From an uncultured Candidatus Saccharibacteria bacterium (GTDB lineage: Bacteria > Patescibacteriota > Minisyncoccia > Minisyncoccales > CAZWDF01): a DNA stretch of 31,568 nucleotides. Under the pieces are notes generated by a model, which was not told where the DNA came from, ran no database searches, and worked only from the letters and a program-made list of their open reading frames with translations. How positions within the stretch are numbered: position 1 is the first letter of the stretch; every line of letters starts with the position of its first letter. The DNA lies in contig CAZWDF010000002.1 of assembly GCA_964632335.1 (NCBI GenBank), positions 1 through 31,568 on the forward strand. Reading direction: 5' to 3'. Shown one piece after another: positions 59-31,568 of the stretch. The translations under genes and the position numbers were made by a program.

Positions 59-154
59 ATGGGTAAGACAACCGAACTTATAATCATGTTTGTCGTAGTG
101 GTCGTGGCGGTCATCGTAGCTGGCTGGATTAGCAAAAAGATAATCCCAGCATAG
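59..154 (+). CDS. 31-aa single-TM peptide (not in ORF track), probable virion membrane protein
   Basis: SD AGGAG then MGKTTELIIMFVVVVVAVIVAGWISKKIIPA*. Confidence 0.7.
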   Translation: MGKTTELIIMFVVVVVAVIVAGWISKKIIPA

Positions 155-252: not shown

Positions 253-438
253 ATGCAGTGGGACAAGTTACTCATAATCGTTTTACTGGTTGCGATAGCA
301 GTCATGCTTCACAAGTTAGTCACCCGCAACTCTACTTTGAAAACTACAGCATCTAAGACTCCGCTAGGGGTAGCTACAGAAGCCACAACGGCACAAGAAG
401 CACTGTTGTTAGCTTATCCAAATTGTAGAACTATTTAG
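253..438 (+). CDS. 61-aa N-terminal TM protein, probable virion membrane protein
   Basis: Hydrophobic LLIIVLLVAIAVML; directly upstream of the capsid genes. Confidence 0.65.
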   Translation: MQWDKLLIIVLLVAIAVMLHKLVTRNSTLKTTASKTPLGVATEATTAQEALLLAYPNCRTI

Positions 439-27175: not shown

Positions 27176-27182
27176 AGTAGGA

Positions 27183-27210
27183 ATTATACTCCTATGTGCT
27201 TAAAAGTCAA
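27183..27210 (-). promoter_or_regulatory. Sigma70 promoter; probably leaderless RHH-initiator-loader transcript
   Basis: TTGACT-16-TATAAT, 7 nt before GTG 27175. Confidence 0.65.
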
Positions 27211-27320
27211 TACTTTGATGTGCATAAAATACACTCTATTTTTAGAGTTTTAGTGTAATAAAGTTTACTTTTGCTCTTCCTCTTCCTCTTATATCTTTAT
27301 ATTATAATAGTAGAGGGGGG

Positions 27321-27528: not shown

Positions 27529-28191
27529 TTAGCCTAGAATCTGCCTTAGTTGCTTGTGGGCTATTCTCTTGACTGCGCGTATAAGTAGGAGACTGTGGAC
27601 TTTTCTCCTAAACTTACTTTTCTGTAATAAGCTATGGCAGCTTCTACATAAGATAATTAAGTTACTTTCCTTATTGTTATTTCTATCATAGTCTATATGG
27701 TGTGTAACATACATACCTTTCTCTATTATTGGTTTATGGCATAACTGGCAGGAGCAATCATCCCTCTTTAGAATATCTGGTCTTATAGTATAAAACTCTG
27801 CTGGATACCTTCCCGGATAGCCACCCTTCCAATTAGGGTTTAATTCCCTTATCCTACCAAACATAGGATTATTAGCTCCAAGTAGCCTTTTGCTTCGGTT
27901 TTCTCTATCAGCTAGTGCTGCTTGCCGAATCTTTTGTTTAGTCTCTTCTGATACGGGGTGAGTATCCCAATAACCGCGATAACCTATTGGAGCAGTTCGG
28001 ATTTTCTCCTTTACTTCCTTTGGTAAGTTAGCCATTGCTATCTTAGTAGCTTCGCTCGTCCTTTTCCTTTGTTCTGGCGTACGAACTCTCCCTTTGTTAG
28101 CTATACTCACCTTCAGCCTAAATTCAGGAGTAGTATGGGTAGCTCTTAACCTCTCTAATTGGCTCCCACTATAATGGCTACCTTTTTTCAT
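27529..28191 (-). CDS. NUMOD3-like plus HNH endonuclease
   Basis: NPMFG/NPNWKGG motifs; CQLC..THHIDYDRNNNKESNLIILCRSCH; AT-rich. Confidence 0.85.
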   Translation of the reverse strand: MKKGSHYSGSQLERLRATHTTPEFRLKVSIANKGRVRTPEQRKRTSEATKIAMANLPKEVKEKIRTAPIGYRGYWDTHPVSEETKQKIRQAALADRENRSKRLLGANNPMFGRIRELNPNWKGGYPGRYPAEFYTIRPDILKRDDCSCQLCHKPIIEKGMYVTHHIDYDRNNNKESNLIILCRSCHSLLQKSKFRRKVHSLLLIRAVKRIAHKQLRQILG

Positions 28192-28787
28192 CCCATTATC
28201 TGCCTTGCCTGTTTTTGAGCCTCATCTTTGGCTTGAGCTATATTGATATAATGCTGTCCAATCTCGATACTTTTCCAGCCCATAAAGTAGGAAAGTGCCG
28301 GCGCACTCATTCCCTTAGTAGCTAAGATTGTTGCACAAGTCGCTCGTAAGGCATGGCAAAAGGTAGTATTATACGCCAATCCTCTTTGATGAATCTTAGC
28401 TCTTGAGGCTACTTGTTTAAGTCTCCACCATAGTGATTGTCTTGTTTTTTGGAAGCCTTTGGGGGATAATCGTAGAAACTCTTGGAGGTCTGCTAGTAAT
28501 GGTGTTGTTACTGGGATTGTTCTCACACTTGTTTTAGTCTTAGGATACCACATACCCTTGCATCTGCTACAATCACATGGCTGCGATTCTGGAATGCTGA
28601 TTTCTAAACCAGTAAGAGTATTATGTACCCATTCCGCATTAAGATGAGCAACCTCAGATACCCTCAACCCAGCATAGAGGCAGAGCTTGATTAGAACTTT
28701 ATCCTCTAGGCTCTGACAGGCGTGTATAAGGGCATCCCTTTGCTCTTCGCCTAGGGCGTATCGCTCACTAGCACCCCGTTTAGGCAT
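28188..28787 (-). CDS. Short tyrosine recombinase/integrase (catalytic domain only, SNJ2-like)
   Basis: GLRVSE (R), PKT (K), HALR (HxxR), MGW (W), HY (Y); Cys insert PCDCSRC before WYPKT; 199 aa. Confidence 0.85.
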   Translation of the reverse strand: MPKRGASERYALGEEQRDALIHACQSLEDKVLIKLCLYAGLRVSEVAHLNAEWVHNTLTGLEISIPESQPCDCSRCKGMWYPKTKTSVRTIPVTTPLLADLQEFLRLSPKGFQKTRQSLWWRLKQVASRAKIHQRGLAYNTTFCHALRATCATILATKGMSAPALSYFMGWKSIEIGQHYINIAQAKDEAQKQARQIMG

Positions 28788-28790
28788 TGT

Positions 28791-29561
28791 TCACTCTTGG
28801 CTTCTTTGATTCGGCTTTTTAGGCTCTGTAGGGCTTTCAGGTATTTCTCCCATGCCCCGTCTGATTGGCTCACTTTTCTCCGGTAGTGCTACTTTCTCTG
28901 CTACGGTTCGCGGTCTTTCTTTTTCGGTAACGCTAACGACTTTGGGTTTACGTGATAGCTCTAGGGTTTGTGGTTCCATGGGCTCATTATGCCGCGCTGC
29001 ATCTATGGAGTATTGAAGGAACTCCCAATCGCCAAGATTCATTATACGAGAACACAAATCCTTGCCTACCATATCGGTAATGTATTGCTTAGCTTGGATG
29101 CCACACTGGAAGAAGAAGACATGAGAACAGCGCCCGAAGAAGCGCTTGTTAATCTCCTGGATTCGCTGCGTTACGGCGATGATGCCTATGCCCCAATTTC
29201 GCCCGACATTTATGAGTTCCGAAGTCCACGTTCCGAACCTCATATATTGCCCGATGTAAAGGTCAGCCTCTTCGATGATAAATTGAAAGTCCTTGACAGA
29301 ACACAAGTATTCACAGACATTATTAAACTCTATGATGCTATCGGAATTCTTTGGCAGGTATCGACATTTATCAGGGAAGTTCCGATATTGTTTAAGTGGA
29401 TCATAGATAAGTAATCGATCTTCAGGAATTGCTGAGGCAAGATACTTAGCCATCGTGGTCTTGCCACTACCAGGCATACCACAGATAAGGATTCTATCTG
29501 TGCTACTCATGGGGCGCAGTTGCCCGATGTCGCTATTGGATTGGTTGCTCGGCTCCGGCAT
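28791..29561 (-). CDS. FtsK/HerA-superfamily (A32-like) genome-packaging ATPase
   Basis: Walker A GMPGSGKT, IYDP, Walker B IIEEAD, GRNWGIGIIAVTQR arginine-finger/sensor motif. Confidence 0.85.
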   Translation of the reverse strand: MPEPSNQSNSDIGQLRPMSSTDRILICGMPGSGKTTMAKYLASAIPEDRLLIYDPLKQYRNFPDKCRYLPKNSDSIIEFNNVCEYLCSVKDFQFIIEEADLYIGQYMRFGTWTSELINVGRNWGIGIIAVTQRIQEINKRFFGRCSHVFFFQCGIQAKQYITDMVGKDLCSRIMNLGDWEFLQYSIDAARHNEPMEPQTLELSRKPKVVSVTEKERPRTVAEKVALPEKSEPIRRGMGEIPESPTEPKKPNQRSQE

Positions 29562-30078: not shown

Positions 30079-30567
30079 TTATGCTCCTTCTCTTGCCTCT
30101 TTGATTTCCTTTTCCTTCTCAGGCATTGCCCCTACTGGTTTTTCCTTTGAGCCTAGCGCTCCGCCTTGCCTCCGCCAAATGCCATAACCTACCACACGGC
30201 CACCGTAGAGCGTGGCTATGAGAAGTAGAAGTTGAATCTTGGCATCCATTTCGATGTTCAGAGCGTTGACGAGCTCTACCACATCGTTTAGCTCCTCTGG
30301 TGATAACTTCCAGCCTTCCCACTTGGTAAGAGTAGCTAAAAGTTCACCAGGCAGCCCTGCTGCCCCCCGGATGAAGGAAGGCATCAGGGGAGCCTTCCCA
30401 GGGGCAGCCACAGCGCCAGGAGGGGGCTTTTCAGCCTCTTCCTTCTCTCCCTCCTGCCTGATTGTCTCTGCCGTTATCGGTGGCTCATATTCGCCCTCCG
30501 TGGGCTTGAATGGCGATGATAAAGGTGGGGCTGTTTCGTCTTTGGAATCGGGATGCTGCATTGTCAT
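30079..30567 (-). CDS. Membrane protein upstream of the packaging ATPase
   Basis: Acidic/Pro-rich N-terminus, TM IQLLLLIATLYGGRVVGYGIW. Confidence 0.55.
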   Translation of the reverse strand: MTMQHPDSKDETAPPLSSPFKPTEGEYEPPITAETIRQEGEKEEAEKPPPGAVAAPGKAPLMPSFIRGAAGLPGELLATLTKWEGWKLSPEELNDVVELVNALNIEMDAKIQLLLLIATLYGGRVVGYGIWRRQGGALGSKEKPVGAMPEKEKEIKEAREGA

Positions 30568-30895: not shown

Positions 30896-31420
30896 CTAAT
30901 CTAAATCGCTAAATGGTAGAAAGCTAAATTTGTATTTTTCTTTCTTCTGGGATGATTCAGGTGACCCGGGAGACTCTTGAGCTTCTAGGGGAGGGTTATG
31001 ATTGGGAGCTATCATATCAAGCTGACCATCAGTAAGGGGTATCTTTTTCGCTGGGTGCTTTGGCTTCACTCTAGGCTTCGGGGCTAAGCCCTCTTTCGCA
31101 AGGTGCTGGAACTCGCTCTCTGATATGCGCCAGGTATTACCCGTTGGGCGAGTTGCCTTGATGATTTTTGCGTTAATCAGGTGGCTAATCCACGCCCGAG
31201 AATATCCGAAATGCTTGGCTAGGTCTTGAACGCTGTAGTATTTACCGTCAAGGATTCCCTTCGTTTGCTCTGGCGTAGTAGTCGTTTTCTTTAGCTTTGT
31301 TGATGCTGGCGGTTGCTCAGACTTTGGCTGCTCTGGCGTGGTGGTCTTTTCCCCTATAGGTGCTGGTGGCTGCTCTTGTTTAGCTTGCTCTTCCTTCGGT
31401 TTTTCTTCTTCCCCTGCCAT
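30896..31420 (-). CDS. HTH_17/excisionase-like DNA-binding protein with long Pro/Glu/Thr/Lys tails (start MAGEEE)
   Basis: YYSVQDLAKHFGYSRAWISHLI..IKATRPTGNTWRISESE. Confidence 0.75.
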   Translation of the reverse strand: MAGEEEKPKEEQAKQEQPPAPIGEKTTTPEQPKSEQPPASTKLKKTTTTPEQTKGILDGKYYSVQDLAKHFGYSRAWISHLINAKIIKATRPTGNTWRISESEFQHLAKEGLAPKPRVKPKHPAKKIPLTDGQLDMIAPNHNPPLEAQESPGSPESSQKKEKYKFSFLPFSDLD

Positions 31421-31440
31421 ATCGCCTCCTTCTGCTAAAT

Positions 31441-31469
31441 ACTGTAGCGATTTCTGCAATTAAAATCAA
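31441..31469 (-). promoter_or_regulatory. Candidate sigma70 promoter of the HTH-ATPase-integrase operon, divergent from the structural arm
   Basis: TTGATT-17-TACAGT upstream of SD GGAGG and ATG 31420. Confidence 0.5.
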
Positions 31470-31513: not shown

Positions 31514-31568
31514 TGCTATTGACCAGTGGTCGATACATCCTCCAAAATTTAAGGCATAGGAGCAAAGA
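31514..31568. repeat. 55-bp terminal direct repeat (copy 2)
   Basis: Exact copy of 1-55. Confidence 0.95.

What the first reader, a model, noticed from the sequence alone, without database searches (positions are those of the whole stretch)
28188..28787. Archaeal-virus-type (SNJ2-like) minimal tyrosine integrase in a bacterial virus
Seen: 199 aa, all catalytic residues present, no arm-binding or core-binding domain, Cys-rich insert (PCDCSRC) just before WYPKT, and MGW..Y C-terminus. Known: the SNJ2 pleolipovirus integrase family is short, targets tRNA genes and uses accessory proteins; I recall the same C..C-W.PKT layout. Inference: a temperate lifestyle or dimer resolution, possibly helped by the HTH at 30896 in the same operon. 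No attP or tRNA-like sequence was found by eye.
Basis: partly seen in the sequence, partly recalled or inferred. Interest (0 to 1): 0.62.

Follow-up and report, generated by a model that had tools for sequence, protein, structure and literature searches.

The report
Minimal zinc-knuckle tyrosine recombinase, not SNJ2-type
The gene is a real, intact, very short DNA-cutting-and-rejoining enzyme (tyrosine recombinase) that every known relative of this tailless virus carries just after its DNA-packaging motor gene; it belongs with the tail-fibre "flipping" enzymes of salt-loving archaeal viruses, not with the SNJ2 integrases, and it probably tidies up the virus's circular genome rather than inserting it into the host.

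Summary
The ORF at 28188-28787(-) encodes a 199-aa protein that consists only of a tyrosine-recombinase catalytic domain, with R42, E45, K83, H145, R148, W171 and Y180 intact. PCDCSRC lies just before WYPKT.

The SNJ2 label is wrong. IntSNJ2 has R165, G168, A321 and Y330, so it is about 340 aa long. It has Gly/Ala at Glu-I and Ala/Val at His/Trp-III. This protein has E45 and W171, and only 41 residues precede R-I.

H48, C71, C73 and C76 form a probable C3H zinc knuckle. The same signature occurs in 174 of about 194 relatives, including the tail-fibre invertases Int1 of haloarchaeal myoviruses phiH, phiCh1 and ChaoS9, which are the closest annotated relatives.

In about 30 metagenomic contigs of related jelly-roll viruses the gene always lies downstream of the packaging ATPase. 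The two genes have diverged together (Mantel r 0.68).

At least three related lineages also carry a canonical two-domain integrase. In one of them it sits next to a tRNA-Leu-derived attP-like site.

I therefore favour a Cre/Xer-like role in resolving the genome to unit circles (about 0.42) over lysogenic integration (about 0.33) and inversion (about 0.07).

The parts
28188..28787 (-). Short tyrosine recombinase, 199 aa, catalytic domain only. Codon positions: R42 28662-28664, E45 28653-28655, H48 28644-28646, K83 28539-28541, H145 28353-28355, R148 28344-28346, W171 28275-28277, Y180 28248-28250.
28560..28580 (-). PCDCSRC (residues 70-76). C71, C73 and C76 together with H48 form a putative C3H zinc knuckle at the base of the beta-hairpin that carries catalytic K83.
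   Evidence: These residues are invariant in alignments A1 and A2. H48 co-occurs with the Cys triad in 174/175 sequences, against 4/19 of those without the Cys residues (Fisher 7e-18, not corrected for phylogeny). Metal binding itself is inferred and was not tested.
28791..29561 (-). Putative FtsK/HerA-type genome-packaging ATPase (256 aa; Walker A motif GMPGSGKT). Its stop codon lies 3 nt before the recombinase start codon. The last ~50 residues are a low-complexity tail that relatives lack.
   Evidence: phrog_2666 8e-16. Weak matches to HerA and the STIV B204 packaging NTPase. Synteny.
30079..30567 (-). Conserved 162-aa protein of unknown function in the same operon.
   Evidence: tblastn hits in 25 loci, always located between the HTH_17 gene and the ATPase gene.
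30896..31459 (-). HTH_17 (excisionase/MerR-type) DNA-binding protein. It is the first gene of the operon that ends with the recombinase and is a candidate accessory or site-recognition factor.
   Evidence: PF12728 5.5e-9. TIGR01764 'excise' 25.7 bits, below the 28.8 cut-off. Conserved at this position in 17 loci.
27529..28191 (-). NUMOD3-HNH homing-type endonuclease. Its start overlaps the recombinase stop codon (ATGA). It is a mobile insertion and not part of the conserved module.
   Evidence: Its homologues lie upstream of the recombinase in L024, L059 and L070.
27176..27320 (.). AT-rich intergenic region at the end of the recombinase operon. It contains a near-consensus sigma-70 promoter (TTGACT-16-TATAAT) for the replication operon and small nested palindromes. 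It is an unproven candidate location for a recombination site.
   Evidence: No dyad of the 9-11 bp arm / 5-9 bp spacer type was found there.

Best explanation
The gene encodes an active tyrosine recombinase that lacks both the core-binding and the arm-binding domain. It belongs to a large family of short recombinases marked by one His and three Cys residues (H48, C71, C73, C76). These probably bind zinc and stiffen the beta-hairpin that carries the catalytic lysine. The chemistry is the standard one: R42, K83, H145, R148 and W171 activate the scissile phosphate; Y180 forms a 3'-phosphotyrosyl link; two pairs of strands are exchanged through a Holliday junction at a short core site.

In this lineage of tailless jelly-roll viruses the gene is a vertically inherited core gene. 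It is co-transcribed with an HTH_17 DNA-binding protein and the FtsK/HerA-type packaging ATPase.

Its most likely job is the virus's own unit-genome recombination, comparable to Cre/lox in P1 or Xer/dif. That means resolving replication or recombination multimers of the 31.5-kb circle into monomers, or re-circularising them, so that single genomes can be packaged or stably inherited. It is less likely to be the lysogeny integrase.

Shown: the identity of the protein, its intactness, its family, the synteny, the co-divergence with the ATPase, and its coexistence with canonical integrases in relatives. Inferred: zinc binding, the resolution role, and any partnership with the HTH_17 protein or the ATPase. 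The recombination site is unknown.
For: Identity and fold.

Family signature: (REH-CCC-W-K-H-R-W-Y in 174 sequences), with co-occurrence statistics.

Core-gene status when anchoring on Int: in every related contig with enough upstream sequence the order is MCPs <-|-> HTH_17 - p162 - ATPase - (0 to 5.4 kb) - Int.

Core-gene status when anchoring independently on the ATPase: 7 of 7 relatives have the short recombinase downstream.

Co-divergence: the pairwise identities of ATPase and Int are correlated over 25 loci (Mantel r 0.68; 0 of 2000 permutations reached it). The viral Ints form one clade (98* in FastTree, 95* in IQ-TREE).

Coexistence with canonical integrases: three lineages (L181/L050, L133, L076) keep the intact short recombinase and also carry a canonical 317-394-aa integrase with an N-terminal SAM-like domain, 1-1.7 kb downstream. 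In L133 that integrase follows a complete tRNA-Leu. In L181 it follows a 52-nt 3' fragment of the same tRNA, a classical attP signature. The lysogeny function there is therefore supplied by another enzyme.

No sign of integration: none of about 45 contigs of this virus clade exceeds about 33.5 kb or shows host flanks. The window itself is a closed circle with a 55-bp terminal overlap.

Need for resolution: the virus has its own exonuclease, a helicase-loader-type replication module and a recombination module, which should generate multimers.

Precedent: the nearest characterised relatives (phiCh1/phiH Int1) are non-integrative enzymes in viruses that carry a second recombinase (PMC8371274).
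Against: No recombination site was identified. There is no dyad with a 5-9 bp spacer near the gene and no motif shared upstream or downstream of int across 28-31 relatives.

One member of the viral clade (L026, Planctomycetota MAG) sits 480 nt after the host trpF gene at the end of a chromosomal contig. A sister-clade member (P0010) sits between hisS/gyrB and a D5-type primase-helicase in two samples. Both arrangements look like integrase genes at the edge of integrated elements.

The window virus has no other integrase.

Cargo genes accumulating next to int is also what one sees next to attP in temperate phages.

Between the window and its closest relative, the 3' three-quarters of int is more diverged than the ATPase gene (pS 0.735 against 0.586). 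The gene therefore does take part in mosaic exchange.

No experiment or read-level evidence is available.
Confidence: 0.42

Rival explanations
1. It is the lysogeny integrase. A simple core-type attP, probably just upstream of int or in the AT-rich region after the operon, recombines with a chromosomal attB. The HTH_17 protein may act as the directionality factor.
For: PHROG and Pfam label it an integrase. The HTH_17/excisionase-type gene is in the same operon. L026, which nests inside the viral clade, lies next to host trpF at a contig end. The P0010 elements show host genes | Int | D5 primase in two samples. Cargo cassettes lie next to int, as in the lambda b region. The window has no other recombinase.
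Against: Three related lineages keep this gene and also carry a canonical integrase, in one lineage (L133, L181) beside a tRNA-Leu or its 3' fragment, an attP-like site. No integrated copy or host flank appears among about 45 contigs of the clade. There is no tRNA-like or host-identical sequence in the window. None of 400 genomes of the MAG's class carries the gene. Deep, syntenic co-inheritance with the packaging ATPase is unusual for a lysogeny module. In the window only 3 nt separate the ATPase and int genes.
Confidence: 0.33
2. It is a DNA invertase that flips a segment or promoter to switch expression, as phiCh1/phiH Int1 and FimB/FimE do. Those are the experimentally studied recombinases without a core-binding domain.
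For: The closest annotated relatives are the Int1 tail-fibre invertases (phiH 3e-14, ChaoS9 5e-10, phiCh1 1e-9; HMM 110-112 bits). The domain-less architecture is the same as in FimB/E.
Against: No inverted repeat pair brackets int or any plausible switch. The longest inverted repeats are 32 nt at 75% complementarity, 14 kb apart. The local scan found only short, chance-level repeats. The spike-gene repeats are in direct orientation. The window and L138 are collinear throughout. int is not flanked by paralogous genes in opposite orientation as it is in phiCh1 and phiH. The viral clade is separate from the Int1 clade in both trees.
Confidence: 0.07
3. It is an SNJ2-type (Arch2) integrase of pleolipovirus origin that targets a tRNA gene with two accessory proteins.
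For: Only general resemblance supports it: both are tyrosine recombinases from viruses, both have some Cys-rich insert, and both sit in an operon with small DNA-binding proteins.
Against: The defining substitutions are absent (E45 and W171, where SNJ2-type has G/A and A/V). There is no ~160-aa N-terminal region. Proteins with the SNJ2-type signature score 7.6 and 1.9 bits on the family HMM, with BLASTP E values of 0.85-2.8. No tRNA-like attP is present. No pleolipovirus hit appeared in the phage collection. Source for the SNJ2 criteria: PMC5861418.
Confidence: 0.02
4. It has some other packaging-linked DNA transaction, for example site-specific nicking and closing (topoisomerase-IB-like), or linearisation and re-circularisation of the circle coupled to the FtsK/HerA-type motor. 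Alternatively it is a selfish passenger with no role for the virus.
For: Its start codon is 3 nt from, or overlaps, the end of the ATPase gene in 14 of 24 loci (gap under 170 nt; overlap of 18 nt in L074 and L075). Tyrosine recombinases share their fold and chemistry with type IB topoisomerases (established knowledge).
Against: There is no precedent and no site. A selfish passenger would not be universally retained under dN/dS 0.07.
Confidence: 0.1

Closest known systems
Int1 of haloarchaeal myoviruses phiCh1, phiH and ChaoS9 (tail-fibre invertase; 224 aa)
   Same: It belongs to the same sequence family (tblastn 3e-14 to 1e-9 over 81-94% of the query; family HMM 110-112 bits). It also has no core-binding domain (47 residues before R-I). 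It shares the R-E-H...C..C..C...W-x-P-K-T...H-x-x-R...W...Y signature, and it is virus-encoded.
   Different: Int1 lies inside an invertible segment between two oppositely oriented tail-fibre genes that carry repeat clusters; nothing of that kind exists here. The Cys spacing differs (C-x9-C-x2-C against C-x-C-x2-C). It falls in a separate clade in both trees. Its host is archaeal, whereas the context here is bacterial. Here the gene is coupled to a packaging ATPase.
FimB/FimE (E. coli type-1 fimbrial switch recombinases, 198-200 aa)
   Same: Catalytic-domain-only architecture of the same length. They depend on accessory DNA-bending proteins.
   Different: They have no His-Cys3 insert and have His rather than Trp at position III. 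They are chromosomal and invert a 314-bp promoter element. Similarity is only 38-39 bits on the family HMM.
Cre of phage P1, and XerC/D and XerA
   Same: This is the proposed functional analogy: monomerisation of a circular replicon. Trp at position III is shared with Cre. XerA is the best NCBIfam hit (53.8 bits). In bacteria, Xer is activated by FtsK, a motor of the same superfamily as the neighbouring ATPase.
   Different: All of these have a core-binding domain of about 110-150 aa. The XerA score is far below its cut-off of 220. No lox- or dif-like site was found. The analogy is inferred, not tested.
IntSNJ2 / Arch2 subgroup (pleolipovirus SNJ2)
   Same: It is a tyrosine recombinase of a membrane-containing virus, with R, K, H, R and Y present, and it sits in an operon with small accessory proteins.
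   Different: IntSNJ2 is about 340 aa with an N-terminal domain. It has G168 and A321 where this protein has E45 and W171. It targets tRNA-Met. In proteins with the SNJ2-type signature the Cys-rich insert sits before His-II. There is no detectable pairwise similarity.
Lambda-type heterobivalent phage integrases
   Same: Same catalytic fold and chemistry. PHROG groups it with them (phrog_1).
   Different: This protein has no arm-binding and no core-binding domain. Relatives of this virus that have such a canonical integrase carry it in addition to this gene.

Membership tests
Tyrosine recombinase superfamily (PF00589) | Catalytic R-K-H-R-[H/W] residues plus the Tyr nucleophile, in order | tested here: met
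   R42, K83, H145, R148, W171 and Y180. PF00589 63.4 bits against a cut-off of 27.1. Alignment.
Tyrosine recombinase superfamily (PF00589) | Catalytic-domain fold | tested here: met
   AF2 model pLDDT 93.7. Foldseek probability 1.00 to Tn1549 Int, XerA, P2, HP1 and Cre.
SNJ2-type integrases (Arch2) | Glu/Asp-I replaced by Gly/Ala | tested here: not met
   E45 is present and is invariant in the family. Criterion from PMC5861418.
SNJ2-type integrases (Arch2) | His/Trp-III replaced by Ala/Val | tested here: not met
   W171 here; W in 164 and H in 9 of 175 family members.
SNJ2-type integrases (Arch2) | Two-domain protein of about 340 aa with R-I near residue 165 | tested here: not met
   199 aa with R-I at residue 42. 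IntSNJ2 positions from Table 1.
SNJ2-type integrases (Arch2) | Sequence similarity to family members | tested here: not met
   L176 and L177, haloarchaeal proteins with the SNJ2-type signature, score 7.6 and 1.9 bits on the family HMM, with BLASTP E values of 0.85-2.8. Caveat: IntSNJ2 itself could not be fetched.
SNJ2-type integrases (Arch2) | attP identical to the 3' end of a tRNA gene, near int | tested here: not met
   No tRNA and no tRNA-like fragment at Rfam E<=5.
phiCh1/phiH Int1-type short His-Cys3 recombinases | No core-binding domain (about 40-50 residues before R-I) plus conserved His and three Cys before W-x-P-K | tested here: met
phiCh1/phiH Int1-type short His-Cys3 recombinases | Significant sequence similarity | tested here: met
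   tblastn 3e-14 (phiH) and 1e-9 (phiCh1). HMM 110-112 bits. However, they fall in separate clades.
phiCh1/phiH Int1-type short His-Cys3 recombinases | Gene located inside an invertible segment bounded by inverted repeat clusters in paralogous genes | tested here: not met
   No such repeats or paralogues. Compare the phiH and phiCh1 annotations.
phiCh1/phiH Int1-type short His-Cys3 recombinases | Zinc bound by His-Cys3 | not testable with these tools
   Only conservation and co-occurrence are available.
XerC/XerD/XerA resolvases | Core-binding domain plus a score above the equivalog cut-off | tested here: not met
   NF040815 XerA 53.8 bits against a cut-off of 220; TIGR02225 XerD 32.4 against 329.6. 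Only 41 residues precede R-I, against 147 in XerC/D.
Xer/Cre-like function (multimer resolution) | A single short dyad-symmetric site on the replicon; resolution of direct repeats | tested here: inconclusive
   Dyad and motif scans found no candidate.
Lambda-type (heterobivalent) integrases | N-terminal arm-binding domain | tested here: not met
   The protein begins at the boundary of the catalytic domain.

The most novel reading that the evidence does not exclude
A whole lineage of tailless, membrane-containing jelly-roll viruses of bacteria couples an FtsK/HerA-type packaging ATPase to a dedicated minimal zinc-knuckle tyrosine recombinase, with an HTH_17 protein as the site reader. This would be a viral counterpart of FtsK-XerCD/dif: the motor and the recombinase together turn replicated multimers into single circles at the moment of packaging. 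It would be a previously undescribed answer to how circular genomes are made packaging-ready in such viruses. It would also define a new functional class within a His-Cys3 recombinase family shared by archaeal and bacterial mobile elements.
Probability: 0.15. Interest if true: 0.8.

Novelty: new member of a known kind. Interest (0 to 1): 0.5.

Why it matters
There are three reasons.

1. It corrects a family assignment. It also identifies a large, coherent but apparently undescribed signature group of tyrosine recombinases: catalytic domain only, with an invariant His and three Cys residues. This group links the haloarchaeal virus invertases (phiCh1/phiH Int1) to hundreds of bacterial and archaeal mobile-element genes.

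2. In this virus lineage the recombinase behaves as a core gene tied to the packaging ATPase. It persists even where a canonical integrase and a tRNA-derived attP are present. That points to a genome-maintenance or packaging-linked role, and how circular genomes are handled by FtsK/HerA-type packaging viruses is an open question.

3. A 199-aa recombinase that works without a core-binding domain would be an attractive minimal scaffold for studying how site specificity is achieved, whether by accessory proteins or by the zinc hairpin.

If it turns out to be simply the integrase, the finding is ordinary.

Tried and rejected
- **attB in the MAG.** I ran blastn-short of the window against the other 256 contigs. 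The longest exact match was 20 nt (E 0.04), which is chance level.
- **tRNA-like attP.** ARAGORN and a permissive Rfam scan found nothing.
- **Core-type dyads.** I scanned for 11-bp arms with 5-9 bp spacers across the genome, and for 9-bp arms in the 200 nt upstream of int in 28 relatives. Only terminator-like hairpins turned up elsewhere, and nothing near int.
- **Shared 7-mers.** Counts upstream and downstream of int across relatives were not above shuffled controls.
- **Invertible switch in the divergent region.** I rejected this. The 'intergenic' stretch 1-451 holds two small transmembrane ORFs, the hairpin at 175-217 is collinear with L138, and no flanking inverted repeats exist.
- **The 17-nt palindrome as a recombinase site.** I rejected this. 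It has 7-bp arms and a 1-nt centre, and it is absent from L138 at the homologous place.
- **Integrated copies in the MAG's class.** None of 400 genomes carries the gene.
- **IMG/VR.** It holds no member of the viral clade; the best hits are 35% identical and not syntenic.
- **Deep phylogeny.** The backbone is unresolved. Under the mixture model XerC/D and FimB/E nest among the short recombinases, so monophyly of the His-Cys3 group against Xer/Fim is not established.
- **IntSNJ2 itself.** I could not fetch it; no supplement is held. I used proteins with the matching signature instead.
Full report
**1. Observation**

The ORF at 28188-28787 on the minus strand is real and encodes 199 aa. It matches Pfam Phage_integrase over residues 13-185, which is model positions 4-170 of 172 (3e-17, 63 bits). 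It also matches the PHROG integrase families phrog_216 and phrog_1.

Counting on the sequence, the catalytic set is R42, E45, K83, H145, R148, W171 and Y180. PCDCSRC is residues 70-76, directly before K-G-M-W80-Y-P-K83-T. Only 41 residues precede R-I.

An AlphaFold2 model built on 27 homologues is confident (pLDDT 93.7, pTM 0.89) and shows a single domain. Foldseek matches it to the catalytic domains of Tn1549 Int, XerA, P2 Int, HP1 Int and Cre, and to many viral integrases.

The window is a closed circle: bases 1-55 equal bases 31514-31568. The short length is genuine. All close homologues are 189-216 aa. The gene starts 3 nt after the stop codon of the upstream gene. Against its closest relative dN/dS is 0.07.

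**2. Not SNJ2-type**

The SNJ2 paper (PMC5861418) lists IntSNJ2 as R165, G168, K199, H295, R298, A321 and Y330. It defines the family by Gly/Ala at Glu/Asp-I and Ala/Val at His/Trp-III. Smyshlyaev et al. (PMC8138268) place it in subgroup Arch2 of the 'simple' recombinases, which have a core-binding domain plus a catalytic domain. Here position I is E45, position III is W171, and there is no N-terminal domain.

I could not fetch IntSNJ2 itself. I did recover two haloarchaeal proteins with the SNJ2-type signature: L177 and L176, 340-341 aa, with R near residue 157-160, Ala/Ser after R-I and Val at position III. They score 1.9 and 7.6 bits on an HMM of this family. On the same HMM phiCh1/phiH Int1 score 110-112 bits, XerD 58, FimB/E 38, XerC 27 and Cre 18. 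They do have a Cys-rich insert, but it lies just before His-II and not before the catalytic Lys.

**3. What family it is**

In the annotated phage collection the best matches are Int1 of the haloarchaeal myoviruses phiH (3e-14, 94% coverage), ChaoS9 and phiCh1. Int1 is annotated as lying inside the invertible tail-fibre segment. Int1 is 224 aa, also lacks an N-terminal domain, and reads ...RIGEIAHL...PCEKGRDGGLCGYC...W-x-PKT....

I aligned 200 sequences: the top 150 cluster representatives from a 1.84-billion-protein search, the recovered loci, and reference proteins. The string R-E-H/C-C-C/W-K/H-R-W-Y recurs in 174 of them, with a median of 43 residues before R-I. H48 accompanies the Cys triad in 174 of 175 sequences, but is present in only 4 of 19 sequences that lack the Cys residues (Fisher 7e-18, not corrected for phylogeny). 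I read this as a C3H zinc knuckle at the base of the hairpin that carries K83. That is an inference.

Members of the family occur in several settings:
- haloarchaeal chromosomes and viruses;
- Thermoplasmatota and Nitrosotalea MAGs;
- bacterial MAGs (Anaerolineales, Planctomycetota, Fibrobacteres, Acetothermia).

In both trees the window's protein sits in a well-supported clade: 36 rows at 98* in FastTree and 22 rows at 95* in IQ-TREE with a mixture model. This clade is distinct from the Int1/haloarchaeal clade. The deep backbone is unresolved, and XerC/D and FimB/E are not cleanly separated from the short recombinases.

**4. Context**

The neighbours on the same strand are, in order:
- HTH_17 (30896-31459);
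- a conserved 162-aa protein (30079-30567);
- small ORFs;
- a P-loop ATPase (28791-29561) that resembles FtsK/HerA-type packaging enzymes;
- the recombinase;
- a NUMOD3-HNH endonuclease that overlaps the recombinase stop codon.

This operon is divergent from the jelly-roll capsid genes. Earlier notes of this scan describe the element as a Halopanivirales-like tailless virus.

In about 30 metagenomic contigs whose recombinase is 40-72% identical, the order is the same: capsid genes <-|-> HTH_17 - p162 - ATPase - Int. I then searched independently with the ATPase. All 7 relatives with enough sequence have the short recombinase downstream. The ATPase association is confined to this clade.

The gap between the two genes ranges from an 18-nt overlap to 5.4 kb. 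The long gaps are filled by cargo: glycosyltransferases, radical-SAM enzymes, methyltransferases and HNH genes. The pairwise identities of the ATPase and the recombinase are correlated over 25 loci (Mantel r 0.68; 0 of 2000 permutations reached it). There is still some mosaicism. Against the closest relative (L138: ATPase 87%, Int 70%), identity drops inside int and the synonymous divergence is higher there.

**5. Function**

No recombination site could be found:
- no tRNA or tRNA-like fragment;
- no sequence shared with the rest of the MAG;
- no dyad or shared motif near int;
- no inverted repeats that could bound an invertible segment.

*For integration.* One clade member (L026) lies 480 nt after trpF at the very end of a 30-kb Planctomycetota chromosomal contig. 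A sister-clade member (P0010) lies between hisS/gyrB and a D5-type primase-helicase in two samples.

*Against integration as the conserved role.* Three lineages of the virus clade (L181/L050, L133, L076) keep the intact short recombinase and additionally encode a canonical 317-394-aa integrase 1-1.7 kb downstream. In L133 that integrase follows a complete tRNA-Leu. In L181 it follows a 52-nt 3' fragment of the same tRNA, the classical mark of an attP. No contig of the clade is longer than one genome or shows host flanks. phiCh1 likewise has a second recombinase besides the non-integrative Int1 (PMC8371274).

*Weighing.* I favour a Cre/Xer-like unit-genome resolution or circularisation role, co-expressed with the packaging ATPase (0.42). 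Lysogenic integration comes next (0.33), then inversion (0.07), another packaging-linked role or a passenger gene (0.10), and SNJ2-type (0.02). About 0.06 is left unassigned.

**6. Host caveat**

The window is contig C2 of a 1.52-Mb, 257-contig MAG with a bacterial rpoB. Several observations make the binning doubtful:
- the MAG's core GC is about 37% and its GC distribution is bimodal, whereas the virus is 46.5% GC;
- the virus's 17-nt palindrome is absent from the other 1.49 Mb;
- the MAG's class-level relatives are genomes of 0.5-0.9 Mb.

The host is bacterial by gene content (a DnaC-like loader) and by the bins of its relatives, but it is not identified.

**7. Verdict**

The SNJ2 interpretation is refuted, while the 'archaeal-virus-type minimal recombinase' intuition is partly right, because the relative is phiCh1/phiH Int1. 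This is a new member of a known kind. Its core-gene linkage to a packaging ATPase is interesting, and its role is untested and probably non-integrative.

Noticed in passing
L181:8628-9788; L050:3435-4616; L133:18103-18415; L076:11605-12558 (minus): Relatives of this virus carry a second, canonical two-domain integrase 1-1.7 kb downstream of the short recombinase. In L133 it follows a complete tRNA-Leu(TAG). In L181 it follows a 52-nt 3' fragment of that tRNA, which is an attP-like signature.
   Followed up: yes
L133:10651-15822; L135:6098-11172; L181:1896-6717 (L025/L136 is the same as L135): A cargo cassette of about 5 kb sits exactly between the packaging ATPase and the short recombinase in several relatives. 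It holds two glycosyltransferases, a B12-binding radical-SAM enzyme, a second radical-SAM enzyme, and a methyltransferase or epimerase. The junction is a hot spot for accessory genes.
   Followed up: partly
window 28791-28950 (minus): In the window and in L138 the ATPase carries a low-complexity C-terminal tail of about 50 aa (PEKSEPIRRGMGEIPESPTEPKKPNQRSQE...). Relatives (201-216 aa) lack it. The former ATPase-int spacer appears to be read through.
   Followed up: no
window 27529-28191 (minus): The start of the NUMOD3-HNH endonuclease gene overlaps the recombinase stop codon (ATGA). Its homologues lie upstream of the recombinase in L024, L059 and L070, so this homing-type gene moves around the recombinase.
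   Followed up: partly
window 28188-28720 compared with L138: Nucleotide identity to the closest relative falls from about 0.85 in the ATPase gene and the first ~130 nt of int to about 0.6-0.7 in the rest of int. pS is 0.735 for int against 0.586 for the ATPase. This indicates a mosaic breakpoint inside the recombinase gene.
   Followed up: partly
whole MAG (G000), window = contig C2: The assignment of the virus to this MAG is doubtful. The MAG has a bacterial rpoB, its main GC is about 37% and its GC distribution is bimodal, whereas the virus is 46.5% GC. The 17-nt palindrome has 0 copies in the other 1.49 Mb.
   Followed up: partly
L176:1338-2363 (minus); L177:1196-2218: Haloarchaeal recombinases with the SNJ2-type signature have their own Cys-rich insert (C-x5-C-P-H-D-x5-C-x12-C) just before His-II. 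This is a different position from the insert in this family.
   Followed up: no
window 59-154 and 253-438 (+): The apparently intergenic stretch between the divergent operons encodes two small transmembrane proteins (31 and 61 aa) that are conserved in L138. A 19-bp-arm hairpin at 175-217 lies between them. The 17-nt palindrome at 222-239 is absent from L138.
   Followed up: partly
L142:3711-5469 and L143: A sister-clade short recombinase (P0010, 196 aa) sits between the host genes gyrB-hisS and a D5_N/DUF5906 primase-helicase in two metagenome samples. This is a small integrated element that uses this recombinase family.
   Followed up: partly
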